This document shows positions 26,954-47,704 of a stretch of 64,000 nt of DNA, in pieces. How positions within the stretch are numbered: the stretch's first letter is position 1; each line of letters opens with the position of its first letter. A model generated the notes under the pieces. It saw only the letters and a program-made list of their open reading frames with translations, searched no databases and was not told where the DNA came from. The position numbers and the translations under genes are program-made. The stretch lies in NCBI GenBank assembly GCA_036009625.1, contig DASYLJ010000096.1, forward strand, positions 14,297-78,296. The letters run 5' to 3'. The DNA is from Candidatus Binatia bacterium (lineage in GTDB: Bacteria > Desulfobacterota > Binatia > DP-6).

Positions 26954-27046
26954 GGAGCACCTCCGTCTGGGATGGCGCTCCTTACGACCGAACGTTGCGG
27001 AAGTCACCTCCGCTTGGCGGCGGCGGTCGCTATCGGCTACAGCCTG

Positions 27047-27466: not shown

Positions 27467-27476
27467 GGAGCCCCAC

Positions 27477-33111: not shown

Positions 33112-35331
33112 GTGTTGGCTTCCGTGCGCGCGACGTCCCGATCCACCGTTTCGCTCCCCACCGCCGGATTCGCCGCCGCCCTGCTGCTGGTCACCGGGCT
33201 CGGCGTCCTGTCGTACGCCCGTCTGCAATCGACGCTCGCCGCGGGTGACGCCGCCCGCCATACCCTGCAGGTGCTGCAGGTGATCGAGGTCGTCCTCGGA
33301 CGGCTTCGAGACGCCGAGACCGGCCAACGGGGTTTCGTGCTGACGGGCGAGGAGCCGTATCTCGAGCCCTATCGCACCAGTCGCCAGAAGCTGCCGCGCG
33401 ACCTGAACCGGCTGCGCCGGCTCGCGAGCGACAATCCGGCGCAGGCAGTCCGCATGCTCCAGCTCGAGCCGCTGGTGGCGCAGAAGATGGTCGAGCTCGA
33501 CCTGACGATCGCGCTCCGGCGCGAGCGCGGATTCGAGTCTGCGCTCGAGATCGTCACCAAGGACACGGGCCGCGAGGCGATGGACGCCGCACGAGGCATC
33601 CTCGCGGACATGGCCACCGAGGAGCGCACCCTGCTGCGCGAGCAGGCCGCCGACCGCGAGCACGACGCGCGTCAGGCCACCGCCGCCGGCGTCGGCGGGA
33701 GCCTCCTCACCATCCTCCTGCTCGTGGGCTCCGCCCTGGCATTGCGCCGCCAGATGGAGCGACGCGCCGTCGCCGAGCACACCACCCGCGAGAGCCAGGA
33801 GCGCCTCCTCGTCACGCTCTCGAGCATCGGCGATGCGGTCATCGCCACCGACACCAGCGGCATCATCACGTTCATGAACCTGGTCGCGCAGACGCTCACC
33901 GGCTGGGGCCAGCTCGAGGCCCGCGGACGACCGCTGCCCGAGGTCTTCCGCATCGTCAACGAGACGAGTCGCATGACCGTCGAGAATCCCGTCGACAAGG
34001 TGCTGCGGGAAGGCCGCATCGTCGGCCTCGCGAACCATACCGTGCTGATCGGCCGTGACGGCACGGAGCTGCCCATCGACGACAGCGCCGCACCTATCCG
34101 CGACGGGGACGGCGAGGTGATGGGCGTGGTCCTCGTGTTCCGTGACGTCAGCGAGCGCAAGGTGGCGGAAGAATCTCGCGAGCGCTACGTGCGCGCCGAG
34201 GCCGCGAACCAGGCCAAGGACGACTTCCTAGCCGTGCTGTCCCACGAGCTGCGCGCACCGCTCAACGCCATGCTCGGTTGGGTCCGTCTGCTGCAGCGGC
34301 CCGAGCGCACCGCGGCGACGATCGATCGCGCCATCGAGGTGCTGGAGCGCAACATCGGCACGCAGACGCGCGTCATCAACGAGCTGCTCGACGTGTCGCG
34401 CATCGTCTCGGGACGCCTGCAGCTCGAGCTCGAGCCGCTGAACCTGGTCGACATCGTGCGCGATGCCGTCGATTCGATCCGGGTCGCCGCCGAGGGCCGC
34501 GGGCTCGTGCTGATGCAGACGCTGCCCGAGCAGGCGGTGCTGCCGGTGCGGGGCGATCCCGCCCGCCTGCAGCAGGTCATGGGCAACCTGCTCACCAACG
34601 CCGTCAAGTTCACGCCGGCCGGCGGCCGCATCGACGTCATGCTGACGCGCGAGGTCGACGGCGCGCGCATCGTCGTGCGCGACACCGGTCAGGGCATCGC
34701 GCCCGAGTTCCTACCCTACGTCTTCGAGCGCTTCCGTCAGGCCGACAGCAGCACGAGTCGCGCTCATGGCGGTCTCGGCCTCGGTCTCGCCATCGCCCGC
34801 AGCCTGGTCGAGCGCCACGACGGTACGCTCACGGCGAGCAGCGAGGGAACGGGCCATGGCGCGACGTTCACGGTCGCGCTCCCGCTCGTGAGCGAGCTCC
34901 CGTCGCTCCCCATCGCGGCGCCCGCACGGGTCGATGGCGGCACGACCCTCGCCGACGTCAGCGTGCTCGTCGTCGAGGACGACGCCGACACGCTCGAAGC
35001 GTTGCGCCTGGCGCTCGAAGCGAGTGGTGCGCGCGTCCTCACGGCCACGAGCATGACGGCAGCGCTCGCCGCCTGGGAGGCAGCGAAGCCGCATGTCGTC
35101 GTCAGCGACATCAGCATGCCCGGCGGCGACGGATACGACCTGATCCGCGCCATCCGCGAGCGCGACGGCGGCCACACGCCCGCCGTCGCCATGACGGGCC
35201 TCGTCAGCAAGGAAGACCGCTCCGCCGCCCTCGCCGCCGGCTTCGACGCCCACCTCTCGAAGCCCATCGACCCCGACTACCTCGTCCGCTTCCTCACCAC
35301 CCTCGCCGCCCGCACGCCCCTTCTCCACTGA
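33112..35331 (+). CDS. Hybrid sensor histidine kinase with CHASE3, PAS, HisKA, HATPase_c and C-terminal receiver
   Basis: TM plus CHASE3-like periplasmic region. PAS (LVTLSSIGDAVIATD). H-box LAVLSHELRAPLN. G-boxes. REC domain VLVVEDDADTLE...SDISMPGGDG...LSKP. 739 aa. Confidence 0.9.
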   Translation: MLASVRATSRSTVSLPTAGFAAALLLVTGLGVLSYARLQSTLAAGDAARHTLQVLQVIEVVLGRLRDAETGQRGFVLTGEEPYLEPYRTSRQKLPRDLNRLRRLASDNPAQAVRMLQLEPLVAQKMVELDLTIALRRERGFESALEIVTKDTGREAMDAARGILADMATEERTLLREQAADREHDARQATAAGVGGSLLTILLLVGSALALRRQMERRAVAEHTTRESQERLLVTLSSIGDAVIATDTSGIITFMNLVAQTLTGWGQLEARGRPLPEVFRIVNETSRMTVENPVDKVLREGRIVGLANHTVLIGRDGTELPIDDSAAPIRDGDGEVMGVVLVFRDVSERKVAEESRERYVRAEAANQAKDDFLAVLSHELRAPLNAMLGWVRLLQRPERTAATIDRAIEVLERNIGTQTRVINELLDVSRIVSGRLQLELEPLNLVDIVRDAVDSIRVAAEGRGLVLMQTLPEQAVLPVRGDPARLQQVMGNLLTNAVKFTPAGGRIDVMLTREVDGARIVVRDTGQGIAPEFLPYVFERFRQADSSTSRAHGGLGLGLAIARSLVERHDGTLTASSEGTGHGATFTVALPLVSELPSLPIAAPARVDGGTTLADVSVLVVEDDADTLEALRLALEASGARVLTATSMTAALAAWEAAKPHVVVSDISMPGGDGYDLIRAIRERDGGHTPAVAMTGLVSKEDRSAALAAGFDAHLSKPIDPDYLVRFLTTLAARTPLLH

Positions 35332-35559: not shown

Positions 35560-37548
35560 TCAGAACTGCGGCCCCGTGCACGGCAGCCCAACGCAGACGT
35601 CCTCGATGAGGCCGTGCGGATGCCAGAAGTCGTCCTTCAGCGCCTGCACCGCCGGGATCTTCGGCGTGTCGTCGTGCGGATCATGCCCGACGCGCGGCGG
35701 CGTGTTCTCGAGCGGCGACAGCTCGGCGCCCGTGTCCCAGAGGAAGTAGGCCGACCGCGGCCAGGGGTAGTACGGGATCGCGCCGATGCCGAAGTCGTGC
35801 TCGCCCCCGAACTGACGCCCGGCGCCCACCAGCGGCTCGTGCCGCAGGATGCCCATGGTGCGCGCTTCGACCTGCAGCGAGAACTCGCTCACCTGATGAT
35901 CTCCGACGGCACCGAGCAGCAGGACCTCCTTGCGCGGCGTGCGCGGATACGGCTTCGCCGTCACGTGCTGCGCGTAGCCGTTGGTCTCGCCGCGATCCCA
36001 CAGCATCTGGATGATGTTGAGGGCCTGCAGCTGCACGACGGTGTCGGGGTACCCGATGTCGAGGAACACCTTGTAGAGGTCGAAGTCGACGCTCCGGGGC
36101 AGCAGCGTCGAGTAGTTCATGCCCGCCTCGCCCAGCACGCAGCGACGGAAGTCCTGCGCCACCGCGCACAGCGCGCCGCCCACGATCGCCCCTTGGCTGT
36201 TGCCGTCGAAGTAGAGCTGTTCGGTGTCGATCGCCGGCACGCCCCCGACCTGGAACGCCGCGTTGCTCGCGAAGCCGTCGGGATGCCGCATCAGGCGGCC
36301 GAGGACGAGGAAGTTCAGGAAGCCCTGCTGCAGACGATCGGCGAGCGACGCGAAGCGCGAGAGGTCCTGGAGGATGGTGATGGCATTGCCCACGTCCTCC
36401 TCGGCCATGCCGATCCAGTCGGTGGCGCAGTAAGCGACGTTGTAGGTGGCGCTCATGTTGCGGACGAGCGACCCGTTCACCTCGCCCTGATCGCCGAGCA
36501 GACCGTGACCGTAGAGCGACATCCGCGCCGGGCCCGTCAGCGCGCTGTTCGGCAGGTTGCAGGTGAACGTCGCCGTGAAGGGCAGCGTCTGGCGCTGCGG
36601 AACACCATTCGCATCGAGCGCGAAGCGATTGCCGGCGCTGCCGTTCCCCGTCAGGTAGAGCGGCACCTCGAACGTCCCCTGGATGCGGCGACGGAACTGC
36701 GGCGACGGGTTCTCGATCACCGACGTCACGGTGAACGCCGGCGCGCGACCACCGAGCGTGCGGAAGGCGTCGTCGCGGATGCGCAGCATGCGGTCGGCGA
36801 TGTTGCGGCCGCTGGCGACGGTGAACTCGAAGGCGATCTGCAGGTCGTCGCGTGCGATGCCGGCGCTCTTGAGGCTGCGGAACACCTTCTCCATCTGCGG
36901 GCGGCGCGACTCGAACGTGGCGTCGGTGGTGCAGGAGCCGTCACGGTAGGACGCGAACGCCGGCGACGCCGGCAGCACGGCGCCACCGCCGTCGACGAGG
37001 CCACGGACGGCGACGATGTAGCGGCGCCCCTCGAGGAAGTTCGTCACCGGCCGCACGACCACGGCGCGGTTGCCCGCCGCCGAGTTCATGTCGGTCTCGG
37101 CCCACACCGGCCAGCGCCTGCCGGTGCGCGCGTCGATGACGACGACGGGCGAGTCGGCGTCGAGCGAGCTGCTGGTGGTGGTGATCGACGGCGCGCCCGA
37201 CTGGGCGAGGTCGACCGTCGGCCACCACATGAGGATGGCCGCACCGGGACTGAACCCGTCGCTGCGATTCAGCTCGGCGACCTCGAGTGGCGTTCCACCG
37301 ACGTTCTTCGGGACGCCGTTCGCCGTGAAGTTGATGCGACGACCCGTGCGGCTGCCGCCGTCGGCACGGGTGAAGTAGTCGTTCGGGAAGGGGAACATGC
37401 AGTGCTCGGGTGCGATCGGATCGCAGTCGGCCTGCTGCGACAGGTCGATGCCGAGATCGGCGGGGTTCTGCGGATTGGCGCAGGTGGCGGCCAACCCCCG
37501 ACCGGCACACAGCAGCAGCAGCGACGCAGCGACGAAGCGGGACGTCAT
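35560..37548 (-). CDS. Secreted alpha/beta-hydrolase-like protein (lipase/esterase-like, GNSQG nucleophile motif)
   Basis: Signal MTSRFVAASLLLLCAGRGLAA. LYGHGLLG (oxyanion HG), YFDGNSQGA (G-x-S-x-G), GDHQVS. 662 aa. Paralog of 37635-40289. Confidence 0.75.
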   Translation of the reverse strand: MTSRFVAASLLLLCAGRGLAATCANPQNPADLGIDLSQQADCDPIAPEHCMFPFPNDYFTRADGGSRTGRRINFTANGVPKNVGGTPLEVAELNRSDGFSPGAAILMWWPTVDLAQSGAPSITTTSSSLDADSPVVVIDARTGRRWPVWAETDMNSAAGNRAVVVRPVTNFLEGRRYIVAVRGLVDGGGAVLPASPAFASYRDGSCTTDATFESRRPQMEKVFRSLKSAGIARDDLQIAFEFTVASGRNIADRMLRIRDDAFRTLGGRAPAFTVTSVIENPSPQFRRRIQGTFEVPLYLTGNGSAGNRFALDANGVPQRQTLPFTATFTCNLPNSALTGPARMSLYGHGLLGDQGEVNGSLVRNMSATYNVAYCATDWIGMAEEDVGNAITILQDLSRFASLADRLQQGFLNFLVLGRLMRHPDGFASNAAFQVGGVPAIDTEQLYFDGNSQGAIVGGALCAVAQDFRRCVLGEAGMNYSTLLPRSVDFDLYKVFLDIGYPDTVVQLQALNIIQMLWDRGETNGYAQHVTAKPYPRTPRKEVLLLGAVGDHQVSEFSLQVEARTMGILRHEPLVGAGRQFGGEHDFGIGAIPYYPWPRSAYFLWDTGAELSPLENTPPRVGHDPHDDTPKIPAVQALKDDFWHPHGLIEDVCVGLPCTGPQF

Positions 37549-37634
37549 GGACGGGCTCCCTTCCGGAACGTGAAGCGTGGCGGCCGCGCGTGGAATCCAC
37601 GCGCGGCCGCCGTCGTGATCAGAACGTCAGTGCC

Positions 37635-40289
37635 TCAGGGGACGATGACGCAGGCGGCACCGCCGCAGACGTCGATGACGGCACCGTTGGTCTTCAGGAA
37701 CTCCGACTTCTGGTTCCGCGCGATGGACGAGCTGCGCGGATGGGAGTGCGGATCGGCGCCCAGGGTGGGGGCCGTGTTGGTGATCGGCGGCGCCGGCGAT
37801 CCGCTGTCGTAGATGACGAGCGCCGAGCCATCGAAGGGGTAGGTGACGATCGGCGGGATGCCGAAGTACGGATCGACGTCGGTGTGACGTCCCGGCACGG
37901 TGGCCGGCGAATGGATCGAGGCGCCGATGGTGCGCGTCTCGACCTCGGTGGCGACGTTGGAGACCTGGTGGTCACCGAACGCCACCTGCAGCAGCACCTT
38001 GTGCTGCGGCGTGTTGGGCAGCGGATCCGTCGTCATGTGGTGCGCGTAGCCGTTCGGCTCCGAGCGGTCCCACAGCATCTGGATCAGCGCCAGCACCAGC
38101 GGGCGCTGCAGCTGGTTCGTGTACGCCGGGTAGAGGAACGCCGAGTACGTCGTGAAGTCGGTGCTGCGGGTGAGCAGCAGCGAGTAGTTCATGCCCGGCA
38201 CGCCGAGGACGCCGCGCGTGATGTCCTGCGCGATCGCCATGACGGTGCCGCCGAAGATGCCACCCTGGCTGTTGCCGTCGTAGAACACGTCGCTCGTGTC
38301 GATGACGGGATTGCCCGAGGCGTCCTGGAAGGCCGCGTTGCCGACGAATCCATTGGCGTGGATCATCAGGCGGGCCAGGAAGAGCTGGTTGATCATCGCC
38401 TGCTGCTGGCGATCGGGGAAGGACGGGAACTTCCCGACCTCCTGGAGAATGCCGATGGCATTGCTCACGTCCTCGTCCGCCATGCCGATCCACTTCGTGG
38501 CGCAGAAGACGAAGTTGTGCTCGTTCGCCATGTCACGGACGTTGCCGCCCGAGACCTCGGTGTTCGAGCCGAGGAGGCCGTGACCGTAGATGGACGCACG
38601 CCCCGGCACCGCGGTGGCGGCGGCATTTGCCAGCGCCGCACGCGGAATGTTGCAGATGAACGACGCCGGCTGCGTCGTGGCCTGATGGATGGGCAGGCCG
38701 TTGCCGTCGAGCTGCATCCGCGCCGGTGCCGTGACGCTGTCGACGTAGCGCTCGACCTGGAACGTGCCGGTGACGCGGCGGTAGATCCGGCTGTCGACCT
38801 CGTTCTCGATGCTCGTCACGCTGAACCCCGGGGCATTGGCGCCAAGGCGGCTGAAGGCGTCGTCACGCATGAACAGGAGGCGCTCGGTGAGGCTGCGCTG
38901 GCTCGCCACCGTGAAGTCCCACGCCAGGTAGAGGTCGTTGCGCGCGATGCCGGCGTTGCCGAGCGTGGTGAAGAGATCTTCCATGTGCGGGCGACGCGCC
39001 TCGAGCGCGTCGATCCCCGTGGGCGTGTTGTCGCGGTACGCCGCGAACACGGACGCCGGCGGGATGATGGTGCCCGACGCGTCCTTCATGTTGCGCAGCG
39101 CCACGATGTAGCGCGTGCCCTCGTCGAAGTTCACCCCGGGGTGGATGATCATCGCCTGCTGTGCCGGGTTGGTGGCGTTCGAATCGAGCTCGACCCACAC
39201 GAGGTGCTGCTGCAGCGTGGTCGCGTTGATGACGACGACCGGCGTTCCGACGAGGAGCGACTGCTCGATGTCGGTGATGGGCGCGGCGCCGGTCTGGGCG
39301 AGATCGACGCCCGGCACGCGGGTGAGGATGGTGCTGCCCGGGCTAAAGCCGTCATTCAGATTGTAGTCGGCGATCGCGACCGGGACGTTCATGTTGTTGC
39401 GCGGCATGCCGGCGATGGCGAAGTGCACGCGACGGCCGGTGTCGGTCGTGCCGTCTTCCTTCGTCAGGTAATCGCTCGGGAACGGGTACAGGCAGTCGGC
39501 CTGGTCGAGCGCATCGCAGGGGCACGTGCAGTCGAAGCTGCAGGTGGCGCCGCCGCCGCACGAGGTGCCGGGCGTGTCGCACTGCTCGCCCGGGTCGATG
39601 GTGCCGTTGATGCACGTCGGGTTGATCGTCGTGCTCGTCGTGCTGCTGGTGCTGGTCGAGGTCGAGGTGCTCGTCGACGTCGTGGTGGTGGTGACGCAGG
39701 TGGCCTCGGCCGTCGGCTTCGACACCTTGAAGAGCTTGTCGGCCTTGTTGGTGATCGTGCCGGTCGCGTAGCTCATGCTGTACGAGTCACCACCGACGAT
39801 GGTGAGCAGCACGCAGCCGCCCGAGCCCGGGTTCGGCGGAACGACGACCACGGGGCCGGCCTTGCCGGAGATGACGGCCTTCACCTGGAAGGTACCGTTG
39901 CCCGACTTCTTCACCTGGGCGCTCTTCACCGGTCCGGCGTCGCCCTTCGAGTCGTTGTACTTGTAGCCCTTCGTCGCATCTCCGCTCCAGTACGGCTTGC
40001 CCGTTGTCGGGCTGTTGCCGCTGGGCAGGATGAACGTCTGCACCGAAGGCGTTCCACCGCTCGCGGTGACGGTGAGGGTCGCGCCCCCAACCGTGGGATT
40101 GCCGACGATGGTGTCGGGGCTCCCGGACTCCTTGGCCTTGGTGACGATCGCACGCTTCTCGGGCGTGCTCGGATTCTTCACGAGCAACTGATTCCCGAGA
40201 ATCGTCTGGTCGACGGCCCCGGCGGGTATCGCCGCGGTCATGACCAGCAGGGCGGCAAGCAACGGGTGACGCATCATGTATGGCTCCAT
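37635..40289 (-). CDS. Secreted alpha/beta-hydrolase-like protein with extra N-terminal module, Thr/Ser linker and Cys-rich segment (paralog of 35560-37548)
   Basis: Signal. N-terminal about 200 aa beta-rich module. TTTTTSTSTSTSTSTSSTTSTT linker. CINGTIDPGEQCDTPGTSCGGGATCSFDCTCPCD. Then the same hydrolase core (IYGHGLLG, FYDGNSQGG, GDHQVSN). 884 aa. Confidence 0.75.
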   Translation of the reverse strand: MEPYMMRHPLLAALLVMTAAIPAGAVDQTILGNQLLVKNPSTPEKRAIVTKAKESGSPDTIVGNPTVGGATLTVTASGGTPSVQTFILPSGNSPTTGKPYWSGDATKGYKYNDSKGDAGPVKSAQVKKSGNGTFQVKAVISGKAGPVVVVPPNPGSGGCVLLTIVGGDSYSMSYATGTITNKADKLFKVSKPTAEATCVTTTTTSTSTSTSTSTSSTTSTTINPTCINGTIDPGEQCDTPGTSCGGGATCSFDCTCPCDALDQADCLYPFPSDYLTKEDGTTDTGRRVHFAIAGMPRNNMNVPVAIADYNLNDGFSPGSTILTRVPGVDLAQTGAAPITDIEQSLLVGTPVVVINATTLQQHLVWVELDSNATNPAQQAMIIHPGVNFDEGTRYIVALRNMKDASGTIIPPASVFAAYRDNTPTGIDALEARRPHMEDLFTTLGNAGIARNDLYLAWDFTVASQRSLTERLLFMRDDAFSRLGANAPGFSVTSIENEVDSRIYRRVTGTFQVERYVDSVTAPARMQLDGNGLPIHQATTQPASFICNIPRAALANAAATAVPGRASIYGHGLLGSNTEVSGGNVRDMANEHNFVFCATKWIGMADEDVSNAIGILQEVGKFPSFPDRQQQAMINQLFLARLMIHANGFVGNAAFQDASGNPVIDTSDVFYDGNSQGGIFGGTVMAIAQDITRGVLGVPGMNYSLLLTRSTDFTTYSAFLYPAYTNQLQRPLVLALIQMLWDRSEPNGYAHHMTTDPLPNTPQHKVLLQVAFGDHQVSNVATEVETRTIGASIHSPATVPGRHTDVDPYFGIPPIVTYPFDGSALVIYDSGSPAPPITNTAPTLGADPHSHPRSSSIARNQKSEFLKTNGAVIDVCGGAACVIVP

Positions 40290-40541: not shown

Positions 40542-41876
40542 CTACAGCAGGGTCCCCCGGAACAGCACGCTCGCGACGGTGAAGTAGATGATCAGCCCCG
40601 TGACGTCGACGAGTGTCGCGACGAACGGTGCGCACGCGCTGGCGGGGTCGAACCCAAGGCGGCGGAGAATGAACGGCAGCAGGGAACCTGCCAACGTCCC
40701 GAAGGTCACGACACCTATCAAGCTCAGCGCAACGGTCAGCCCGACCAGGAGATAGTGCTCGCCGTACGAGCCGAAGAGCCCTACCCACGCCAGGATGCGA
40801 GCGAAGCCGATCGAGCCCAGGATCGTTCCGAGCACCATCCCCGCCCCCAGCTCACGCCGCACCACCCGCCACCAGTCCCCGAGCCGCACCTCACCGAGGG
40901 CCATCGCGCGTATGACGAGCGTGGACGCCTGCGACCCCGAATTGCCCCCGCTGCTGATGATGAGCGGCACGAAGAGCGCGAGAACGACCGCGCGCTCGAT
41001 CTCCTTCTCGAAGTACCCCATGGCGGTAGCCGTGAGCATCTCCCCCAGGAAAAGTGCCGAGAGCCATCCCGCACGCTTCTGCACCATGCTGCCAAACCCG
41101 ACGTCCAGGTACGGCGACCCGAGCGCCTCCGACCCACCGATCCGTTGGATCTCGTCGGTCGCCTGCTCCGTCACGACGTGGACGATGTCGTCCATCGTCA
41201 CGATGCCCTGCATACGCCCCTCGCGATCCACCACCGGGAGCGCGATCAGGCGGGAACGTTGGAAGAGGCGGCTCACATCAGCCTGCGCCGTGTCCGAGGT
41301 GATCGTGACGACGTTGGTGCGCATGATGTCACGGACGTGGTGCTCGGTGTTGGCGTCGAATAGTTCGCGGAACGAAACCACCCCAAGGAGCCGCTGATCG
41401 GGCGCAAGGACGTAGGTGTAATAGATCGTCTCCACCTGCTTGCGTCCCTGGCGGCGCAGATAGGCCATTGCTTCGTCGACCGACATGTCTGGCCGCAAGC
41501 GTGCGAATCTCGTGTTCATGAGCCCGCCGGCCTGATCCTCGGCGTACGCCAATAGGCCGAGCACTTCCTTGCGCGTTGGCTCGTCGAGCAACGAGAGGAA
41601 GGCTTGATGGGCCATGCCCGGCGCCGCCTGAATGAGGTCTGCTGCGTCATCCGGAGCAAGCAGCCGGATCCACGATCGCCGCTCCCCCTCGGGCAGACCG
41701 AGAACGATGGCGGCTTGGTCCGCCGAGCTGAGAGCGAAGAAGAGCTCCTCGGCTTCGGCCCGGGGAAGTAGAAGGAAACCCTCTACGCGCTCTTGCGGTG
41801 CCAGAAGACGCCAGACATGGGCCAGATCGGTTCCCGACAGTGGCGTATCGGATACGACTGGTTGCAGGACGGGCAT
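40542..41876 (-). CDS. mgtE: Magnesium transporter MgtE
   Basis: N-terminal MgtE_N, tandem CBS domains, C-terminal 5-TM MgtE domain with GGNSGSQAST. 444 aa. Confidence 0.9.
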   Translation of the reverse strand: MPVLQPVVSDTPLSGTDLAHVWRLLAPQERVEGFLLLPRAEAEELFFALSSADQAAIVLGLPEGERRSWIRLLAPDDAADLIQAAPGMAHQAFLSLLDEPTRKEVLGLLAYAEDQAGGLMNTRFARLRPDMSVDEAMAYLRRQGRKQVETIYYTYVLAPDQRLLGVVSFRELFDANTEHHVRDIMRTNVVTITSDTAQADVSRLFQRSRLIALPVVDREGRMQGIVTMDDIVHVVTEQATDEIQRIGGSEALGSPYLDVGFGSMVQKRAGWLSALFLGEMLTATAMGYFEKEIERAVVLALFVPLIISSGGNSGSQASTLVIRAMALGEVRLGDWWRVVRRELGAGMVLGTILGSIGFARILAWVGLFGSYGEHYLLVGLTVALSLIGVVTFGTLAGSLLPFILRRLGFDPASACAPFVATLVDVTGLIIYFTVASVLFRGTLL

Positions 41877-42078: not shown

Positions 42079-43686
42079 ATGCCCACCCCCACCGGACCGG
42101 CGCTGATGGAGCGTCTGGTCTCGCTCTGCAAGCGCCGCGGCTTCATCTTCCAGTCCTCCGAGATCTACGGCGGCATCAACGGGTTCTGGGACTACGGGCC
42201 CCTCGGCGTCGAGCTGAAGAACAACCTGCGCGACGCCTGGTGGGACGTCATGGTGCGCAATCCGCCGCTCGGTCCCGACGGCAGGGAGATCGACATCGTC
42301 GGGCTCGACTGCTCGATCATCAGCCACCCCAAGGTCTGGGAGGCCAGCGGCCACGTCGGCGGCTTCGCCGACCCCATGCAGACCTGCCGGCAGTGCAAGC
42401 GGCTCTTCCGGGCCGACCACGTCGAAGACCTGCTGGCCGAGAGTGAGTGGGTGGCCGCCCTCCTCGCGGTCTGCGAAGCAGGCACCAATCCGGGCACCTA
42501 CACGGCCCCGCACGCCGAGCTGAAGCGGTGGGCCGAGACCAAGGGCCGCAAGGTCGCCCCCGGCCTCCTGCTGGTACGGAAGCCGGCCGACGTCCTCGGC
42601 AGCCTCACCGGCGACGCCTTCGACGTCCCCACCCTGCTTCGTCTGCTCTCGAGCGACGCCGCCAGCGCCGAGGGCATCCTGCCCCCCTGCCCTCACTGTG
42701 GCGGCGACCTCACCGAGCCCCGGCAGTTCAACCTGATGTTCGAGACCTACACCGGCGCGGTGCGCGACGAGGACGCCAAGGCGTACCTCCGCCCCGAGAC
42801 CGCGCAGGGCATGTTCTACAACTTCAAGAACGTGATCGACTCGACGCGGGTGAAGATCCCGTTCGGCATCTGCCAGGTGGGGCGCAGCTTCCGGAACGAG
42901 GTCACGCCGCGCAACTTCATCTTCCGCTCGCGCGAGTTCGAGCAGATGGAGCTCGAGTTCTTCGTCCACCCGAGCGAGGCCGACAAGTGGTACCAGTATT
43001 GGCGCCAGCAGCGCTTCGACTGGTGGTGCTCGCTGGGCCTCGCCGGCAAGAACCTGCGACTGCGCGACCACGAGCAGGACGAGCTGGCGCACTACGCCAA
43101 GGAGTCGGGCGGCTGCTGCGACGTCGAGTACGCCTTCCCGTTCTCTGGCGAGAAGGGCTTCACCGAGCTCGAAGGCATCGCCTACCGCAGCAACTACGAT
43201 CTCACGCAGCACCAGAAGTTCAGCGGCGTGAAGCTCGACTACTTCGACCAGGAGCGCAACGAGCGCTACCTGCCGCACGTCATCGAGCCAGCCGCGGGAC
43301 TGACGCGCGGGCTCCTCGCCGTGCTGTGCGAGTCGTACACGGTGGACGAGAGCCGTCCGTCGCCCGAGCTCATGCGCTTCCACCCGCGCCTCGCCCCGAT
43401 CAAGGCAGGTGTGTTCCCGCTGGTGAACAAGGAAGGCATGCCCGAGATCGCGGAGAAGATCTTCCGCGATCTGCGCAAGAACGTCGGCCCCTGCCAGTTC
43501 GACGCCAAGCAGAGCATCGGCAAGCGCTACGCTCGCATGGACGAAGCCGGCACGCCGTTCTGCATCACCGTCGACGGGCAGTCCGTCACCGATCAGACGG
43601 TGACGGTGCGCGATCGCGACACGGGCGCGCAGATCCGCGTCGCGGCGGATCAGATCGTGCAGTACGTCGGCGAGCGCGTGCGCTAG
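42079..43686 (+). CDS. glyQS: Glycine--tRNA ligase (dimeric alpha2 type)
   Basis: MPTPTGPALMERLVSLCKRRGFIFQSSEIYGG...FRNEVTPRNFIFRSREFEQMELEFFV is class II aaRS motif 2. Anticodon-binding C-terminus. GGAG upstream of ATG. 535 aa. Confidence 0.9.
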   Translation: MPTPTGPALMERLVSLCKRRGFIFQSSEIYGGINGFWDYGPLGVELKNNLRDAWWDVMVRNPPLGPDGREIDIVGLDCSIISHPKVWEASGHVGGFADPMQTCRQCKRLFRADHVEDLLAESEWVAALLAVCEAGTNPGTYTAPHAELKRWAETKGRKVAPGLLLVRKPADVLGSLTGDAFDVPTLLRLLSSDAASAEGILPPCPHCGGDLTEPRQFNLMFETYTGAVRDEDAKAYLRPETAQGMFYNFKNVIDSTRVKIPFGICQVGRSFRNEVTPRNFIFRSREFEQMELEFFVHPSEADKWYQYWRQQRFDWWCSLGLAGKNLRLRDHEQDELAHYAKESGGCCDVEYAFPFSGEKGFTELEGIAYRSNYDLTQHQKFSGVKLDYFDQERNERYLPHVIEPAAGLTRGLLAVLCESYTVDESRPSPELMRFHPRLAPIKAGVFPLVNKEGMPEIAEKIFRDLRKNVGPCQFDAKQSIGKRYARMDEAGTPFCITVDGQSVTDQTVTVRDRDTGAQIRVAADQIVQYVGERVR

Positions 43687-45191
43687 GACGACCGGCCGAG
43701 CGTCTTCGCGTCGCGCTTGAGCGCCACGAGGTGATCGGCGAGCGCGCTGCGCAGTGAGGCGTCGAGCGCCTTCGCGGCCTTGGTGTTGAGCCGCACGCGC
43801 GCGACGGTCAGCGTCTTCACGACGCGACGGAGCACGCGCTTCCGCGCCTTGCCCGTGGCGGCATCGGCCTCCTGCAGCGCGCCGGTCGCCGTCGCGAGCT
43901 GTGCGAGCAGCTTGTCGCGCAGCTTCCCTGCCGGCACCTGCCCGGTGACGTCGGCGGTGAGCACGGCGAGCCGGCAGCCGATGGACACCACGGTGGCCTC
44001 GGCGGTGCACGCGAGGGTCGTCGTCGTCGTGCTCGACGTCACCACCGTGGTGGTCGTGGTCGTCGGCGGCACGGAGCCGAACTCGTACGCACCGACATCG
44101 ACGACGCTGTCCGCGATGCGGAGGTTGCCCTCGTAGTCGAGCTCGGGCAACCCGTTGGGTGGGGCGTTGGTCCCGGCGTTGATGAGCGTCGACGTTCCCT
44201 TCAGGTGATAGTCGGCACCGTCGCCGTCGACGTAGAGCGGATCGACGCCGTAGAGCGGCATGCCGAGACTGAAGCCGTTCAGCACGTTCGCCGCGCCGAT
44301 GCCGAAGAAGGCGTTGAACCCGCCGGTGACGCTCAGCTGCGCCGACGCCGGGAAGCTCGCGCCCGGTCCGGTGGTGCGCGACACGATGTTGTTGAAGAGG
44401 TTGAGCGAGATCGTGCTGGTCGAGCCGACGCTGCTCACGTACACACCCTTCGCCGTCTGATCGAGCGTGTTGTTGACCACGTTCACCGTCGCCGCGACGC
44501 TGTCGAGCGAGTACATGACGATCGCGCTCGACGCGACGTCGTGGATGACGTTGTTCTCGACGTCGACGGTGATCTGTCCGCCGCCGCGCATGTCGAGCTG
44601 CAGGCCATCGTAGCCCGGCGTCGACGCGCTCAGGCGGTTGCGCGCGATCGTGAGGTGCGTCGTGCCCGTCGGCGGGGCCATGAGCGTGTCGACGACGTAG
44701 CCGCCGGAGGCGAGGAAATTGTCGAGGAGACGGACGTCCGCGGGGACGTCGGGATCGACCAGGATCGCCGAGCCGGTGAACGTGTTGCTGATCGAGCACC
44801 GCTGGATGGTGACCTCGTCACCCCCGGGCGACGTCGAAAGCACCACCCGGACCGAGCCATTGCTGATGGTCAGCCCCTCGAGCCGGATGACGCTCGGCCC
44901 GCCGGCCTTCCCGCCGATCAGGATGCCGAACGGCGTCGCACTGCCGCCCAGCAGCGGCGTGACACCGGGCGCGCCGGTGAGCGTGATGCCCTTCCTGATC
45001 TGCAGGGGACCGCCACCGATCGGCGCCGTCGTCACGATCTCGATACGGTCGCCGTCGTCGGCTCCATCGATGCACTCCTGCAGCGTCGTGCTGCACGGTG
45101 GCGTGCTCGGAAAACTTCGCGTGACGGCGCGGGCGGGAACGGCAGCGAGCAGCAGGCCGAGGAGCGACCACCATCGGAGGCGGCGAGTCAT
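43683..45191 (-). CDS. Secreted right-handed parallel beta-helix repeat protein with Thr-rich linker and C-terminal helical domain
   Basis: Signal MTRRLRWWSLLGLLLAAVPARA. Repeated NN(V/I)xxxxGxG beta-helix rungs (VENNVIHDV, VVNNTLDQT, LFNNIVSRT). PPTTTTTTVVTSSTTTTT linker. Only the C-terminal 502 aa of the long track ORF looks real. Confidence 0.7.
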   Translation of the reverse strand: MTRRLRWWSLLGLLLAAVPARAVTRSFPSTPPCSTTLQECIDGADDGDRIEIVTTAPIGGGPLQIRKGITLTGAPGVTPLLGGSATPFGILIGGKAGGPSVIRLEGLTISNGSVRVVLSTSPGGDEVTIQRCSISNTFTGSAILVDPDVPADVRLLDNFLASGGYVVDTLMAPPTGTTHLTIARNRLSASTPGYDGLQLDMRGGGQITVDVENNVIHDVASSAIVMYSLDSVAATVNVVNNTLDQTAKGVYVSSVGSTSTISLNLFNNIVSRTTGPGASFPASAQLSVTGGFNAFFGIGAANVLNGFSLGMPLYGVDPLYVDGDGADYHLKGTSTLINAGTNAPPNGLPELDYEGNLRIADSVVDVGAYEFGSVPPTTTTTTVVTSSTTTTTLACTAEATVVSIGCRLAVLTADVTGQVPAGKLRDKLLAQLATATGALQEADAATGKARKRVLRRVVKTLTVARVRLNTKAAKALDASLRSALADHLVALKRDAKTLGRSS

Positions 45192-45214
45192 GCGCCGCTG
45201 ATAGGCGCTCGACG

Positions 45215-47704
45215 CTATGGCCGCAACTCGATGCGCGCCCCGGTGGCCAGAACCGTGGCTCCGATCGTGTGCTCGCGCACGCCGCCCTCGACGACGCGCT
45301 CGATCGTGACCGGATCCCCGAACGTGCGCACCACCTCGAGCGTCGTGTGCTCCGTCGCCGGAGCGTGGTCGCATATGGCCCAGAACGACGGGAAGAACAC
45401 CGGGCAGCGGAGCCGTCCCTGCGGCGCCAGGTGCAGCGTGCGCCCCGGCACGTCGAGCGCGGCGCCCGTCAGCGCGGCGAGAACGGCCCACGCCACCGGG
45501 TGCGTCATGTAGACCGACTCGGCGTTGCCGCGCAGGCCACCGCTCCAGGCGAAGCCGTCGCCCCACAGTCGGTCGTAGAAGCGGCGCAGGGTCTCGAGCC
45601 CGGCCTCCACCTCGCCGAGATAGAGCTGCAGGCAAGCCTGATACGACACCACCTGCCAGACGTACGTGAACTCCTCGCCGCGTGGCAGGCCGGCACGGAA
45701 CGGATGGTCGACCGCGATGCCCTCGAACGTCGCCTCCGAGCGCGGCAGTCCGCCCTCGGCGTGCGTCACCAGCACGCGATACTGATGGACGAGATGGCTG
45801 CGGGCGCGGTCGAGATCGAGGATCGGGTCGAAGCCGGCCCAGCGCACCGCCCACTCGCCGGCGAGCGCCGCCGTGAAGACGGTGTCCTTGTGCTCCGAGC
45901 TGCGAAAGAAGCCGCGCGGGTCCCAGAGGTCGCGATCGAGACGCTGCGCGCAGCGATCGAAGCGTGCCTGCCACACGTCGCACCGTTCCGGCGCGCGCGT
46001 CGCGCCGAGCGTCAGCATCACCCGCAGCGTCGCCAGGTAGAGCGTCGCCGAGTAGACGAACGCGCCCGGGAAATCCCACACGTCGTAGGTCGTGCCGCCC
46101 TCCGGCACACCGTCGGGGGCGATCGAATCGAGGTAGTCGAGGCCGCGCACCATCGCCGGCCAGAACCGGTCGAGCACGTCGTCGCGGCCGGTCGTCCGCC
46201 ACGCCCGTCCCACCTGCAGGATCAGCGACATGGTGAGGTCGGTCCATTCCTTGGCCGGCAGGAAGTCCTTGATGAACATGGGCCAGCCGTAGGGAATCTC
46301 GGTGGTGCCGAGCCCGAGGTCGCAGTTGCCGTTGCCGTGCGGGATGGCGCCACGCGCGTCGGCCAGACGACGGAACTCGTCGAGCTCGGAAAGATCCAGC
46401 TCCGGGAAGAACGTCGCCGTGTAGGGATGCGACGACAGGCGCTGATCGTTGGTGCCGGTGAGACCGCCCATCGGCCAGTGCCAGTCGAGGCCCTCGAGCG
46501 TGTACATGCGACCGTTCGCTGGCACGACGGTGTTGCAGAGCGTCGAGTCGATCGAGTTGCGTATCGCGCGCACCAGCCATGGCGGCAGCGACGACGCCTC
46601 GAGCAGCGCGCCGAGCTCGCTCGACGCCGCCTCGAGCCGACGCCGATCGTCGAGCACGTGCGTCGCCACCGCGTCCACGCCGTCGAAGTGCGTCTCGTAG
46701 ACGTGCCCGACGCGGGTACCATCGTGCGGTCCCTCGCCGCGATGCCGCGCCAGGCTCGGCTCGGTGACGTGGTCCGGCGTCCACCAGGCGAGCACGAACG
46801 TCACCTCGCGCGTCGCGTGCGCGGGTACGGTCGTGGCTGCGGCCACCGCCGCCGCCGGACGCCAGCCACCGTCCTCGCCGCGACGACCCGGGGCCGTCGA
46901 GCGCACGTGCCCCTCGCGCGCGAAGTCGTCGAGCACCGACGCGGACGGCGCGCCGGCGTCCCAGCCATCGCACGCGGTGACGGCGACGTCGGGCGTGGCG
47001 TCGGCCAGCAGGAGGTATTGGCCGGTGACGCCGCGCCGATGCGAGCGCGCGTCCCACACCTGGTCGGTACGGAAGCGCACCCCACGACGGTCACCGACGG
47101 CGGCCTCCTCCTGCCAGGCGCCGGCGATGCTGTCGTACTCGACGCGACGGTGCACACCCTTCATCTCGTGCTCGGGGCCGAGCTCGACCCCGAGGTGCCC
47201 GGTACCGCCACGACCGAGGACGTTCTCGAACGAGAACAGCACCGACGCCTCCACCGGCTCGTCGCCGGGGTTCTGCAGCACGAAGCGGAAGAGCGCCGCC
47301 GGCAGCGTCGATTCGCGGACGTCGTGCGGCACGTGTGGCGTCAGGCCGTGCAGGGTCACCGACAGCGGCAGGTCGTCATCGAAGGCGAGCGCGAACGACG
47401 GCAGCGTCCCGGTGAAGGTGGTGCCGCGCACGGGGCTGGCATTCGCGTACTCGTCGCCGTCGAGGCTGCGACGCAGCATCACGCATCGAGTCGCTCCGCT
47501 GCGTCGCGTCCAGAGGGCGTGGAACGCGCCGCGCACGCCATGGATGGGCGACATCCAGTTGTTGTTGAGGCGCAGCTCACCGAAGCCGCCGTCCGACGCC
47601 ACGCTGAAGCCGCCCGCGCCGATGCCGCCCATCGGGAAGCCACGCGCGACGCGCGTGTCGACATAGGCACCGGTGACGGGATCGAAGCCGGCGCGTCGCT
47701 GCAT
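45215..47704 (-). CDS. GH116-family beta-glucosidase (glucosylceramidase / GBA2-like)
   Basis: N-terminal FPMGGIGAGGF...GELRLNNNW block and C-terminal (alpha/alpha)6 catalytic region typical of GH116. About 829 aa from the internal start MQRRAGFDP. Confidence 0.8.
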   Translation of the reverse strand: MQRRAGFDPVTGAYVDTRVARGFPMGGIGAGGFSVASDGGFGELRLNNNWMSPIHGVRGAFHALWTRRSGATRCVMLRRSLDGDEYANASPVRGTTFTGTLPSFALAFDDDLPLSVTLHGLTPHVPHDVRESTLPAALFRFVLQNPGDEPVEASVLFSFENVLGRGGTGHLGVELGPEHEMKGVHRRVEYDSIAGAWQEEAAVGDRRGVRFRTDQVWDARSHRRGVTGQYLLLADATPDVAVTACDGWDAGAPSASVLDDFAREGHVRSTAPGRRGEDGGWRPAAAVAAATTVPAHATREVTFVLAWWTPDHVTEPSLARHRGEGPHDGTRVGHVYETHFDGVDAVATHVLDDRRRLEAASSELGALLEASSLPPWLVRAIRNSIDSTLCNTVVPANGRMYTLEGLDWHWPMGGLTGTNDQRLSSHPYTATFFPELDLSELDEFRRLADARGAIPHGNGNCDLGLGTTEIPYGWPMFIKDFLPAKEWTDLTMSLILQVGRAWRTTGRDDVLDRFWPAMVRGLDYLDSIAPDGVPEGGTTYDVWDFPGAFVYSATLYLATLRVMLTLGATRAPERCDVWQARFDRCAQRLDRDLWDPRGFFRSSEHKDTVFTAALAGEWAVRWAGFDPILDLDRARSHLVHQYRVLVTHAEGGLPRSEATFEGIAVDHPFRAGLPRGEEFTYVWQVVSYQACLQLYLGEVEAGLETLRRFYDRLWGDGFAWSGGLRGNAESVYMTHPVAWAVLAALTGAALDVPGRTLHLAPQGRLRCPVFFPSFWAICDHAPATEHTTLEVVRTFGDPVTIERVVEGGVREHTIGATVLATGARIELRP

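What the first reader, a model, noticed from the sequence alone, without database searches (positions are those of the whole stretch)
35560..40289. Tandem paralogous secreted alpha/beta-hydrolase-like proteins, one with an added N-terminal module
Two adjacent minus-strand genes share a conserved core over the C-terminal about 600 aa: CDxxxxxCxxPFPxDYxT, (L/I)YGHGLLG, F(C/Y)AT(D/K)WIGMA(E/D)EDV, (Y/F)(F/Y)DGNSQG(A/G), FGDHQVS. GNSQG fits a G-x-S-x-G nucleophile elbow and resembles the GYSQGG of the secretory-lipase (LIP) family. The upstream copy carries an extra N-terminal beta-rich module, a 22-residue Thr/Ser linker (likely O-glycosylated) and a Cys-rich knot. Neither matches a well-known family by eye. 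Possibly an undescribed secreted lipase/esterase family that was duplicated and then gained a domain.
Basis: partly seen in the sequence, partly recalled or inferred. Interest (0 to 1): 0.6.

Follow-up and report, generated by a model that had tools for sequence, protein, structure and literature searches.

The report
Uncharacterised secreted serine hydrolase pair
Two neighbouring genes of an uncultured Binatia bacterium encode secreted enzymes of a very large, never-described branch of the alpha/beta-hydrolase superfamily, probably lipid-ester-cleaving enzymes; one of them also carries an extra, lineage-specific beta-sandwich module at its front end.

Summary
Two minus-strand genes, A (35560-37548, 662 aa) and B (37635-40289, 884 aa), share 47% identity over 627 aa, and the listed motifs are present with small corrections. 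Neither matches any Pfam or NCBIfam model, and no PDB sequence matches. The family is nevertheless very large: 6159 clusters at 50% identity and at least 593 species, including cultured Actinomadura, Streptomyces and Thermomonospora. Every NCBI and JGI name listed is 'hypothetical protein'. An AlphaFold model of A (pLDDT 85) shows an N-terminal beta-rich domain followed by a canonical alpha/beta-hydrolase domain. Ser451 (GNSQG) sits on the nucleophile elbow, Asp550 follows beta7, His625 follows beta8, and an HG oxyanion loop follows beta3. These residues are near-invariant across diverse members. Foldseek's best solved matches are distant: CE7 and CE15 esterases and S9 peptidases. The only recurrent sequence link is weak, colinear similarity to VolA/Pla-1 phospholipases (13 of 49 members). 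Together with fusions to ceramidase-like domains, this favours a lipid-ester substrate, but the substrate is inferred, not shown. A and B are ancient paralogs, not a recent tandem duplication. B's extra module is a mobile, Binatia-type beta-sandwich with no solved relative. The suggested link to the LIP lipase family is not supported.

The parts
35560..37548 (-). Gene A: 662-aa secreted two-domain serine hydrolase (A-type orthologous group)
   Evidence: ORF. GC3 0.92. Exact match to a Candidatus Binatia MAG hypothetical protein.
37489..37548 (-). A signal peptide (residues 1-20, predicted cleavage GLA|AT)
   Evidence: Read from the sequence. AF2 pLDDT is below 50 for residues 1-21. It does not fit a canonical lipobox. 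This is inference.
36604..37425 (-). A N-terminal beta-rich domain (residues 42-315), opening with the CD-x6-C-x2-PFP-x-DY motif
   Evidence: AF2 secondary structure. Cys42 is invariant and Cys50 nearly so, and DGFSPG is nearly invariant. There is a weak colinear hit to the N-terminal part of TIGR03502.
35569..36591 (-). A alpha/beta-hydrolase domain (residues 320-660) with a helical cap at 480-530
   Evidence: AF2 topology beta3 to beta8. Foldseek PDB hits to CE7, CE15, S-formylglutathione hydrolase and S9 enzymes, best E 3e-8, probability 1.0.
36493..36513 (-). A oxyanion-loop motif YGHGLLG (His348-Gly349 directly after beta3)
   Evidence: His348 is kept in 47 of 49 diverse members.
36196..36198 (-). 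A Ser451 codon (AGC): predicted nucleophile in GNSQG, between strand 440-450 and helix 452-463
   Evidence: Ser in 44 of 49 members.
35899..35901 (-). A Asp550 codon: predicted triad acid, directly after beta7 (541-548)
   Evidence: Invariant in 49 of 49 members.
35674..35676 (-). A His625 codon: predicted triad base (DPH), after beta8 (600-605)
   Evidence: Kept in 48 of 49 members.
37579..37611 (-). Intergenic hairpin between B and A: perfect 15-bp G+C stem with a 3-nt loop. A GGAAGGGAG ribosome-binding site for A follows.
   Evidence: Sequence. RNA fold z = -4.06. Unique in the window. Conserved in the orthologous spacer of L002. Its role as a terminator or mRNA-stability element is inferred.
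37635..40289 (-). Gene B: 884-aa paralog (B-type orthologous group) made of signal peptide, N-module, linker, Cys-rich stretch and the same two-domain core
40215..40289 (-). B signal peptide (residues 1-25, cleavage AGA|VDQ). The true start is probably Met5 or Met6.
   Evidence: Homologs of the module align from ADQ onward.
39696..40211 (-). B N-terminal all-beta module (residues 27-198, 12 strands, conserved Cys159 and Cys198)
   Evidence: AF2 pLDDT about 97. No significant PDB fold match, best E 0.05. 263 homologs, mostly stand-alone proteins of about 235 aa or fusions to other domains.
39627..39692 (-). B Thr/Ser linker (residues 200-221, 22 residues)
   Evidence: pLDDT is 57 or lower in the blocks that cover it, so it is probably disordered. 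A T/S linker follows the module in nearly all homologs.
39522..39614 (-). B Cys-rich stretch (residues 226-256, 6 Cys; pattern C-x-N-G-x-I-D-x-G-E-x-C-D)
   Evidence: It is positionally equivalent to a TIGR02232 'cysteine-rich acidic repeat' in homolog P0324 (E 7e-12), but B's own copy does not score.
38697..39518 (-). B core N-terminal beta-rich domain (about residues 258-531)
   Evidence: Aligned to A 42-315.
37644..38684 (-). B alpha/beta-hydrolase domain (about residues 536-882). Ser674 is at 38268-38270, Asp773 at 37971-37973, His848 at 37746-37748, and the oxyanion-loop His570 at 38580-38582.
   Evidence: Alignment to A. Motif coordinates.

Best explanation
A and B are Sec-exported serine hydrolases of a large two-domain family that no curated database describes. 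Each core has an N-terminal beta-rich domain, which opens with a Cys-bracketed CD-x6-C-x2-PFP-x-DY motif. This is followed by a canonical alpha/beta-hydrolase domain. In A, Ser451 (GNSQG, on the elbow after beta5) is the predicted nucleophile. His625 (DPH, after beta8) would activate it, and Asp550 (GDHQV, after beta7) would orient the histidine. The oxyanion would be stabilised by the HG loop after beta3 (His348-Gly349) and by the backbone of Gln452. A four-helix cap between beta6 and beta7 carries invariant or nearly invariant polar residues (Arg485, Ser486, Trp517-Asp518-Arg519) that probably shape the substrate pocket. The most likely activity is hydrolysis of acyl esters of lipids (phospholipase, lysophospholipase, lipase or esterase) outside the cytoplasm. 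That would release fatty acids for an organism rich in beta-oxidation genes. The family is a remote relative of the VolA/Pla-1 phospholipases. B is an old paralog that additionally carries a ~170-aa beta-sandwich module, a Thr/Ser linker and a degenerate Cys-rich repeat. The module is a mobile N-terminal unit of many Binatia-type secreted proteins and probably serves surface attachment or substrate targeting rather than catalysis. Shown here: the fold, the conservation and topological placement of the triad residues, the size of the family and its lack of annotation, the age of the paralogs, and the mobility of the module. Inferred: export, triad geometry, the lipid substrate, and the role of the module.
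For: Fold. The AF2 model of A has pLDDT 84.9 and pTM 0.86, with the order beta3-HG, beta5-Ser-helix, beta7-Asp, beta8-His. Foldseek against PDB gives 369 hits at E<=1e-3; the 50 best listed are all alpha/beta hydrolases and all have probability 1.0.

Conservation in 49 members that are 35-51% identical to A. Asp550 is kept in 49/49, His625 in 48/49, Ser451 in 44/49 and His348 in 47/49. Three of the five members that lack the Ser also change GHG to GHD, so the two sites appear to co-vary as one active site would.

No curated family. Pfam, NCBIfam and PDB sequence searches are empty.

Family size. 6159 representative clusters, at least 593 species, and only 'hypothetical protein' among the NCBI and JGI names listed.

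Lipid link. TIGR03502 (VolA/Pla-1 phospholipase) is hit weakly by 13 of 49 members, best E 8.5e-6. The next most frequent model is hit by 6 members and is a lipoprotein family, matched at the signal-peptide end of the protein where the matched stretch was shown. The TIGR03502 hits fall in two colinear regions. The N-domain matches profile positions 160-259, and the segment expected to contain the nucleophile matches 509-572. VolA is an experimentally shown lysophospholipase (PMC3656444).

Fusions. Giant gammaproteobacterial proteins join complete units of this family to ceramidase-like, PI-PLC-like and S15-like hydrolase domains.

Gene neighbourhood. In an Acidimicrobiia subgroup of up to 9 loci the gene lies among lipid-catabolism genes. 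In the locus scanned (L038) these are a GDSL lipase and an enoyl-CoA hydratase upstream and an acyl-CoA dehydrogenase downstream.

Extracytoplasmic location. Signal peptides are present, and Cys42, Cys50, Cys374, Cys652 and Cys657 are invariant or nearly so.
Against: No member has been characterised, and no substrate evidence is direct. Each TIGR03502 hit is far below that model's cut-off (at most about 19 bits in the hits shown individually, against 383.9), and a majority-rule consensus of the family did not hit it at all. The best structural neighbours are carbohydrate esterases and peptidases, not lipases, with TM-scores of only 0.2-0.56. Most ceramidase-like Pfam hits in the fusion proteins are below Pfam's gathering score. 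The genes around the pair in this window are unrelated housekeeping or regulatory genes: MgtE, GlyRS and a CHASE3 histidine kinase. No context is conserved among Binatia.
Confidence: 0.5

Rival explanations
1. They are carbohydrate esterases, similar to CE7 acetyl-xylan esterases/cephalosporin-C deacetylases or CE15 glucuronoyl esterases. They would remove acetyl or uronoyl esters from polysaccharides or lignin-carbohydrate complexes, with the N-terminal beta domain acting as a carbohydrate-binding or gating domain.
For: The top Foldseek PDB hits are CE7 enzymes (3fcy, E 2.9e-8; 6fkx; TM0077; 1ods) and CE15 enzymes (6hsw, OtCE15A). From my own knowledge, GxSQG is the CE7 signature around the nucleophile. 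Two of 49 members hit Pfam AXE1 weakly. Conserved Arg residues in the cap could bind a carboxylate, as in CE15 (inference). GH1 and GH116 genes lie within 10 kb.
Against: TM-scores are low (0.2-0.56) and identity is 10-15%, which is what any alpha/beta hydrolase would give. No CE7 or CE15 Pfam model is met. No CAZyme cluster or sugar transporter lies next to the genes. Fusion partners are lipid-type hydrolase domains, not glycoside hydrolases.
Confidence: 0.15
2. They are secreted serine peptidases of the S9/S15/S33 type, such as prolyl oligopeptidase-like or X-Pro dipeptidyl peptidase-like enzymes. The N-terminal domain would restrict access to the active site.
For: S9 enzymes are among the Foldseek hits (PREP, oligopeptidase B, macrocyclases OphP and PCY1, and an S9 carboxypeptidase). 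The layout of an N-terminal beta domain followed by a C-terminal catalytic domain resembles S9 enzymes.
Against: RMSDs for the S9 hits are 14-17 Angstrom and TM-scores 0.20-0.26. The model's N-domain shows no repeated blade pattern of the propeller type. No peptidase Pfam or NCBIfam model is hit by any of the 49 members. In the giant proteins the family sits beside a separate S15-like domain rather than replacing it.
Confidence: 0.1
3. They are extracellular polyester depolymerases acting on polyhydroxyalkanoate, cutin or suberin. The B N-module would act as a polymer-binding domain joined by a Thr-rich linker, as in PHB depolymerases.
For: One member (P0223) weakly hits the NCBIfam model for the extracellular type-1 short-chain PHA depolymerase catalytic domain (E 0.001). 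From my own knowledge, the combination of catalytic domain, Thr-rich linker and accessory domain recalls PHB depolymerases.
Against: Only 1 of 49 members gives that hit, and it covers 46 residues. The accessory module is N-terminal, is absent from A and from most of the family, and occurs on many unrelated proteins.
Confidence: 0.1
4. The proteins are non-catalytic binding or structural proteins that merely keep a hydrolase fold.
For: Five of 49 diverse family members have lost the nucleophile Ser, so inactive members do exist.
Against: Both window proteins keep the Ser, Asp, His and HG residues intact. These positions are the most conserved in the family.
Confidence: 0.03

Closest known systems
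VolA/Pla-1 family phospholipases (NCBIfam TIGR03502; Pfam PF12262 Lipase_bact_N), e.g. Vibrio cholerae VolA lysophospholipase
   Same: Both are exported proteins of about 650-800 aa with an N-terminal beta-type domain followed by a GxSxG serine-hydrolase domain. Weak but recurrent and colinear HMM similarity appears in both regions, in 13 of 49 members. Many family members, though not A or B, have lipoprotein-type signal peptides like VolA, as seen in the consensus 'LLAAACSSGG'.
   Different: Scores are far below the family cut-off. The segment between the two matching regions is about 90 residues shorter. A and B have signal-peptidase-I type leaders, not lipoboxes. There is no adjacent FadL gene. 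The phyla also differ: Binatia and Actinomycetota rather than Vibrio and Aeromonas.
CE7 acetyl-xylan esterases / cephalosporin-C deacetylases (Pfam AXE1, e.g. PDB 3fcy, 1ods, 1vlq)
   Same: They are the best structural matches to the catalytic domain. They share a GxSQG nucleophile motif with Gln after the Ser (my own knowledge of CE7).
   Different: Identity is 11-15% and TM-score at most 0.56. CE7 enzymes are intracellular hexamers of about 320 aa with no N-terminal beta domain, no signal peptide and no disulfides. The AXE1 model is not met.
Secretory lipase (LIP) family, Pfam PF03583
   Same: Both are secreted alpha/beta hydrolases with a G-x-S-Q/G-G-type elbow.
   Different: No PF03583 hit in any of 49 members at E<=1. 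No LIP or CalA-type structure appears among the top 50 Foldseek matches.
Cysteine-rich acidic repeat of Myxococcales-type secreted proteins (NCBIfam TIGR02232), compared with B residues 226-256
   Same: B shares the pattern C-x-[ND]-G-x-[IL]-[DE]-x-G-E-x-C-D. It occupies the same position after the T/S linker as a bona fide TIGR02232 repeat in homolog P0324.
   Different: B's own sequence gives no hit, even at E<=10.

Membership tests
alpha/beta-hydrolase fold superfamily | Central beta-sheet with the order beta3 - beta4 - beta5 - nucleophile elbow - helix C - beta6 - beta7 - beta8 | tested here: met
   AF2 secondary-structure order for A residues 324-641. Foldseek PDB gives 369 hits at E<=1e-3; the 50 listed are all alpha/beta hydrolases with probability 1.0.
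alpha/beta-hydrolase fold superfamily | Nucleophile (Ser) in a G-x-S-x-G sharp turn between beta5 and helix C | tested here: met
   GNSQG lies between strand 440-450 and helix 452-463. Ser is kept in 44 of 49 diverse members.
alpha/beta-hydrolase fold superfamily | Acid after beta7 and His after beta8, both conserved | tested here: met
   Asp550 is kept in 49/49 members and lies after strand 541-548. His625 is kept in 48/49 and lies after strand 600-605.
alpha/beta-hydrolase fold superfamily | Triad residues within hydrogen-bonding distance in three dimensions | not testable with these tools
   The model's coordinates are not exposed. Only secondary structure and pLDDT were returned.
VolA/Pla-1 phospholipase family (TIGR03502) | Whole-protein HMM score above the curated cut-off of 383.9 bits | tested here: not met
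   A scores 11.2 bits and B gives no hit. Of the hits shown individually, the highest is 18.5 bits; the best E-value among the 49 members is 8.5e-6.
VolA/Pla-1 phospholipase family (TIGR03502) | Remote homology across both the N-terminal domain and the catalytic domain | tested here: inconclusive
   13 of 49 members hit the model weakly, in two colinear regions (profile 160-259 and 509-572). The family consensus gave no hit. A profile-profile search against this family could not be run.
VolA/Pla-1 phospholipase family (TIGR03502) | Lipoprotein signal peptide and an operon with a FadL fatty-acid transporter (as for VolA, PMC3656444) | tested here: not met
   A and B have SPase-I-type leaders by inspection. 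Their neighbours are MgtE, GlyRS and a CHASE3 kinase.
Secretory lipase LIP (Pfam PF03583) | Match to the PF03583 model | tested here: not met
   No hit for A or B, nor for any of 49 members at E<=1.
CE7 acetyl-xylan esterase (Pfam PF05448 AXE1) | Match to the AXE1 model above the gathering score | tested here: not met
   No hit for A or B. Two of 49 members hit weakly, best E 0.066. Structural similarity has a TM-score of at most 0.56.
Cysteine-rich acidic repeat (TIGR02232), for B residues 226-256 | Match to the repeat HMM (cut-off 20.8 bits) | tested here: not met
   The B peptide and B residues 1-257 give no hit at E<=10. The aligned repeat of homolog P0324 scores 44.9 bits.

The most novel reading that the evidence does not exclude
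The family could be a new class of secreted hydrolases for complex lipids. It might, for example, work together with ceramidase-like and PI-PLC-like domains on sphingolipid-type or other unusual membrane lipids, using a substrate-recognition domain and a charged cap unlike known lipases. Separately, the B-type N-module with its Thr/Ser linker, and the conserved 'LYGSPSRAFVDRVxGLLD' tail of its stand-alone relatives, could mark a Binatia-specific system for surface display or sorting.
Probability: 0.12. Interest if true: 0.65.

Novelty: new variant of a known kind. Interest (0 to 1): 0.4.

Why it matters
This is a very large protein family: more than 6000 clusters at 50% identity and at least 593 species, including culturable Streptomyces, Actinomadura and Thermomonospora. 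It has no Pfam or NCBIfam model, no solved relative by sequence, and only 'hypothetical protein' or erroneous 'RecG helicase' labels. Defining it as a secreted Ser-Asp-His hydrolase with a characteristic N-terminal domain would give thousands of proteins a first functional annotation. It would also offer a new enzyme scaffold for lipid or ester biocatalysis. Because cultured organisms carry orthologs, the hypothesis can be tested directly. It is still another branch of the well-known alpha/beta-hydrolase superfamily, so a specialist would find it useful rather than astonishing.

Tried and rejected
- Pfam and NCBIfam scans of A and B found nothing above noise.
- PDB sequence searches with A alone and with a 26-sequence profile found nothing meaningful.
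- hhalign of the catalytic-domain alignment against the S15-like hydrolase domains of the giant fusion proteins gave probability 0.67%. It did align the beta3-HG and beta4 region, but the result is not significant.
- A majority consensus of the family scanned against NCBIfam lost the TIGR03502 hit and gave only signal-peptide noise.
- tblastn of A against 72,556 plasmids gave no match.
- Literature searches for the motif 'GNSQG' or 'G-N-S-Q-G', and for Binatia plus lipase, returned nothing relevant.
- The Cys-rich stretch scanned against Pfam and NCBIfam gave no hit.
- A search for further copies of either the core or the N-module in the window found none.
- A search for a conserved gene neighbourhood across 82 loci found none in Binatia. 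Only an Acidimicrobiia subgroup shows a lipid-catabolism context.
- The idea of a recent tandem duplication was rejected on the identity pattern.
Full report
**1. Observation**

Both have the third-position G+C expected of real genes in this genome, 0.92 and 0.93.

BLASTP of A against B gives 47% identity over 627 residues with E = 0, aligning A 42-657 with B 258-880. The quoted motifs are present in both proteins, with minor corrections. The first motif is CD-x6-C, not x5. The fourth-strand motif is (Y/F)CAT. A has VGDHQVS.

B's extra N-terminal 257 residues contain three parts:
- a beta-rich module, residues 27-198;
- a Thr/Ser run of exactly 22 residues, 200-221;
- a stretch with six Cys, residues 226-256.

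No further copy of either the core or the module exists in the window. B probably starts at Met5 or Met6, because a GGAG lies 6 nt upstream and the ortholog begins MTRHPLL.

**2. Source organism and neighbours**

A is identical to a hypothetical protein of a Candidatus Binatia MAG.

The flanking genes are MgtE (40542-41876, minus strand), glycyl-tRNA synthetase (41971-43686, plus), a CHASE3/PAS hybrid histidine kinase (33112-35331, plus) and a CDP-alcohol phosphatidyltransferase (32441-33076, plus). None suggests a function for the pair.

Farther out lie a GH116, a GH1, a GDSL lipase, an MMPL/sterol-sensing transporter, a sulfatase and an enoyl-CoA hydratase.

The 86-nt B-A spacer holds a perfect 15-bp G+C hairpin at 37579-37611. 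Its RNA fold has z = -4.06. It is unique in the window and conserved in the orthologous spacer of another Binatia genome. A good ribosome-binding site for A follows it. A therefore probably has its own translation start, and the hairpin may terminate or stabilise the B transcript; that role is inferred.

**3. The family**

Neither protein matches any Pfam-A or NCBIfam model. Neither A alone nor a 26-sequence profile matches any PDB sequence.

The family is nevertheless very large:
- more than 5800 hits in the 90%-clustered database;
- 6159 representative clusters at E<=1e-3, and 2088 at E<=1e-30, in the 50%-clustered library;

It occurs in Binatia, Acidimicrobiia, Thermoleophilia and many cultured actinomycetes, including Actinomadura, Thermomonospora, Streptomyces, Spirillospora, Nonomuraea, Micromonospora and Planobispora. 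Wherever NCBI or JGI gives a name, it is 'hypothetical protein'. UniRef labels several members, evidently wrongly, 'ATP-dependent DNA helicase RecG'. No paper was found through the motif.

**4. Structure and active site**

AlphaFold2 with a 26-sequence alignment gives a confident model of A, with pLDDT 84.9 and pTM 0.86. Residues 42-315 form a beta-rich domain.

Residues 320-660 have the canonical alpha/beta-hydrolase order:
- strand 341-347, then YGHGLLG;
- strand 371-376;
- a long helical segment, 383-421;
- strand 440-450, then Ser451, then helix 452-463, which is the nucleophile elbow;
- strand 469-473;
- a four-helix cap, 480-530;
- strand 541-548, then Asp550-His551;
- helix 552-565;
- strand 600-605, followed by a loop leading to Asp623-Pro624-His625 and helix 624-630.

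Foldseek against PDB returns 369 hits at E<=1e-3; the 50 listed are all alpha/beta hydrolases. The best are CE7 acetyl-xylan esterases (3fcy, E 2.9e-8), CE15 glucuronoyl esterases, S-formylglutathione hydrolases and S9 peptidases. Identity is only 9-16% and the TM-score is at most 0.56. The fold is certain, but no solved family is close.

In an alignment of 49 representatives that are 35-51% identical to A, conservation is as follows:

| Residue | Kept in |
|---|---|
| Asp550 | 49/49 |
| His625 | 48/49 |
| His348 | 47/49 |
| Ser451 | 44/49 |
| Arg485 | 49/49 |
| Ser486 | 48/49 |
| Trp517 | 47/49 |
| Asp518 | 48/49 |
| Arg519 | 47/49 |
| Cys42 | 49/49 |
| Cys50 | 48/49 |
| Cys374 | 47/49 |
| Cys652 | 46/49 |
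| Cys657 | 45/49 |

Five members lack the Ser. Three of them also change GHG to GHD. That is the pattern expected if the two sites form one catalytic centre, and it suggests these members are inactive or diverged. A and B keep every catalytic residue.

Triad geometry could not be measured because coordinates are not returned. The triad is therefore supported by topology and conservation, not by distances.

**5. Substrate**

Several lines of indirect evidence bear on the substrate.

(a) Remote similarity to VolA/Pla-1. When all 49 members are scanned against NCBIfam, one model recurs. TIGR03502, 'VolA/Pla-1 family phospholipase', is hit by 13 members with best E 8.5e-6. The next most frequent model is hit by 6 members and is a lipoprotein family, matched at the signal-peptide end where the stretch was shown. 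The TIGR03502 hits fall in two colinear places:
- the N-terminal domain (A 156-247 and P0215 176-266, against profile 160-259);
- the segment expected to contain the nucleophile (P0175, P0217 and P0239, against profile 509-572).

VolA is an experimentally shown surface lysophospholipase with a GxSxG motif and a PF12262 domain (PMC3656444). Each hit is far below the model's cut-off, and a family consensus did not reproduce it. This is a lead to remote homology, not membership.

(b) Fusions. Giant gammaproteobacterial proteins of about 1400 to 6200 aa contain complete two-domain units of this family. They are strung together with ceramidase-like, S15-like alpha/beta-hydrolase, PI-PLC-like, PKD, Calx-beta and TSP3 modules. 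NCBI names one of them as containing a neutral/alkaline ceramidase N-terminal domain.

(c) Neighbourhood. In an Acidimicrobiia subgroup of up to 9 loci the gene sits among lipid-catabolism genes. In the locus scanned (L038) a GDSL lipase and an enoyl-CoA hydratase lie upstream and an acyl-CoA dehydrogenase downstream.

(d) Lifestyle. Binatota genomes are described as having alkane-degradation capacities (PMC8262859, title and abstract only).

Against the lipid reading, the nearest structures are carbohydrate esterases and peptidases, the GxSQG motif is also the CE7 signature (my own knowledge), and no context is conserved in Binatia. I put a lipid-ester substrate at roughly one in two. Carbohydrate esterase, peptidase and polyester depolymerase are the main rivals.

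**6. The two paralogs**

A and B are not a recent tandem duplicate. A-type proteins are 70-94% identical within Binatia and 52-58% identical in Acidimicrobiia and other actinobacterial members, yet only 43-47% identical to B. B-type proteins are 67-93% identical within Binatia.

The tandem B-A arrangement, with GlyRS on one side and the CHASE3 kinase and CDP-alcohol phosphatidyltransferase on the other, is kept in L002, a second Binatia genome. L003 keeps the B-A tandem. Elsewhere the two types occur apart.

**7. B's N-terminal additions**

The module (B 27-198) has 263 detectable homologs. Most are stand-alone proteins of about 235 aa made of signal peptide, module, Thr/Ser linker and a conserved C-terminal tail 'LYGSPSRAFVDRVxGLLD'. 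Others are fused to TSP3 plus lamin-tail domains, to PF07603, or to this hydrolase. It is therefore a mobile N-terminal module.

AlphaFold predicts it very confidently, with pLDDT about 97, as a 12-strand all-beta domain. It has no significant PDB match; the best E is 0.05, to Ig-like or archaellin-like sandwiches.

All nine Binatia B-type orthologs in the genome set carry the module. The long Thr/Ser run of 18-22 residues is found only in the window, L003 and L002.

The Cys stretch has the pattern C-x-N-G-x-I-D-x-G-E-x-C-D. It aligns with a true TIGR02232 'cysteine-rich acidic repeat' in homolog P0324 (E 7e-12), but does not itself score. The module's role in surface attachment or substrate targeting is inference. 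O-glycosylation of the linker cannot be tested.

**8. Comparison with known families, and verdict**

The proteins are members of the alpha/beta-hydrolase superfamily, since the fold, elbow and triad order are all met. They fail the membership tests for VolA/Pla-1 (score), LIP PF03583 (no hit in any of 49 members) and CE7 AXE1. The closest functional analogy is VolA/Pla-1: an exported serine hydrolase with an N-terminal beta domain ahead of the catalytic domain.

The finding is real. The LIP resemblance and the implied recent duplication are not.

Novelty: an undescribed family, that is, a new variant of a well-known kind. Interest is moderate (0.4). The family is large and wholly unannotated, and it can be tested in cultured actinomycetes, but it remains one more alpha/beta-hydrolase clade whose substrate is still unknown.

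Noticed in passing
window 37579-37611 (minus-strand transcript, between B stop and A start): A perfect 15-bp G+C hairpin with a 3-nt loop lies in the 86-nt spacer. It is unique in the window and conserved in the orthologous spacer of L002 (7923-7955). It may be a terminator or an mRNA-stabilising element, and it has no T-tract.
   Followed up: partly
proteins P0274, P0276, P0279, P0281 and others: Stand-alone proteins of about 235 aa consist of B's N-module, a Thr/Ser linker and a conserved C-terminal tail 'LYGSPSRAFVDRVxGLLD'. The tail looks like a possible sorting or anchoring tag and belongs to no family I could name.
   Followed up: no
family members P0207, P0254, P0269, P0265, P0243: Five of 49 diverse members lack the nucleophile Ser (GxGxG or similar), and three of them also change the oxyanion-loop GHG to GHD. 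They may be pseudo-enzymes or may use an altered mechanism.
   Followed up: partly
proteins P0121 (6206 aa), P0123, P0188, P0238, P0258, P0248: Giant gammaproteobacterial (e.g. Spongiibacteraceae) proteins, at least some with lipoprotein-type signal peptides, string together ceramidase-like, S15-like hydrolase and PI-PLC-like domains with one or two full units of this family, plus PKD, Calx-beta and TSP3 repeats.
   Followed up: partly
actinomycete homologs P0399, P0400, P0405, P0406 and others: UniRef names many members of this family 'ATP-dependent DNA helicase RecG'. This is an evident propagated misannotation.
   Followed up: no
window about 43683-45200 (minus strand; the C-terminal part of ORF 43683..47057): Another secreted protein is encoded here. 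By eye it has a signal peptide, sequence that looks like right-handed beta-helix repeats, a poly-Thr linker and a C-terminal helical tail. At this position L002 instead carries a Tle1-like (PF09994) protein.
   Followed up: no
window 45215-47926 (minus strand) and L002 1-1612: A GH116 gene (glucosylceramidase/beta-glucosidase family) lies a few kb from the pair in both Binatia genomes, beyond the glycyl-tRNA synthetase gene. Together with the ceramidase-like fusions this hints at glycosphingolipid-type substrates, but it may be coincidental synteny.
   Followed up: no
window 20542-23781 (minus strand): A 1079-aa MMPL/sterol-sensing-domain transporter is fused to a C-terminal cyclic-nucleotide-binding domain. 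It lies next to a sulfatase (24440-26284) and a 475-aa GDSL lipase (26303-27730).
   Followed up: no
loci L031, L034, L037, L038, L047, L048, L053, L054, L060 (Acidimicrobiia): A recurring gene order surrounds the family gene in these loci. In the locus scanned (L038) it is: DUF7065/DUF7064 protein, GDSL lipase, enoyl-CoA hydratase, the family gene, nitrilase-like, luciferase-like monooxygenase, ABC-F ATPase, acyl-CoA dehydrogenase.
   Followed up: partly
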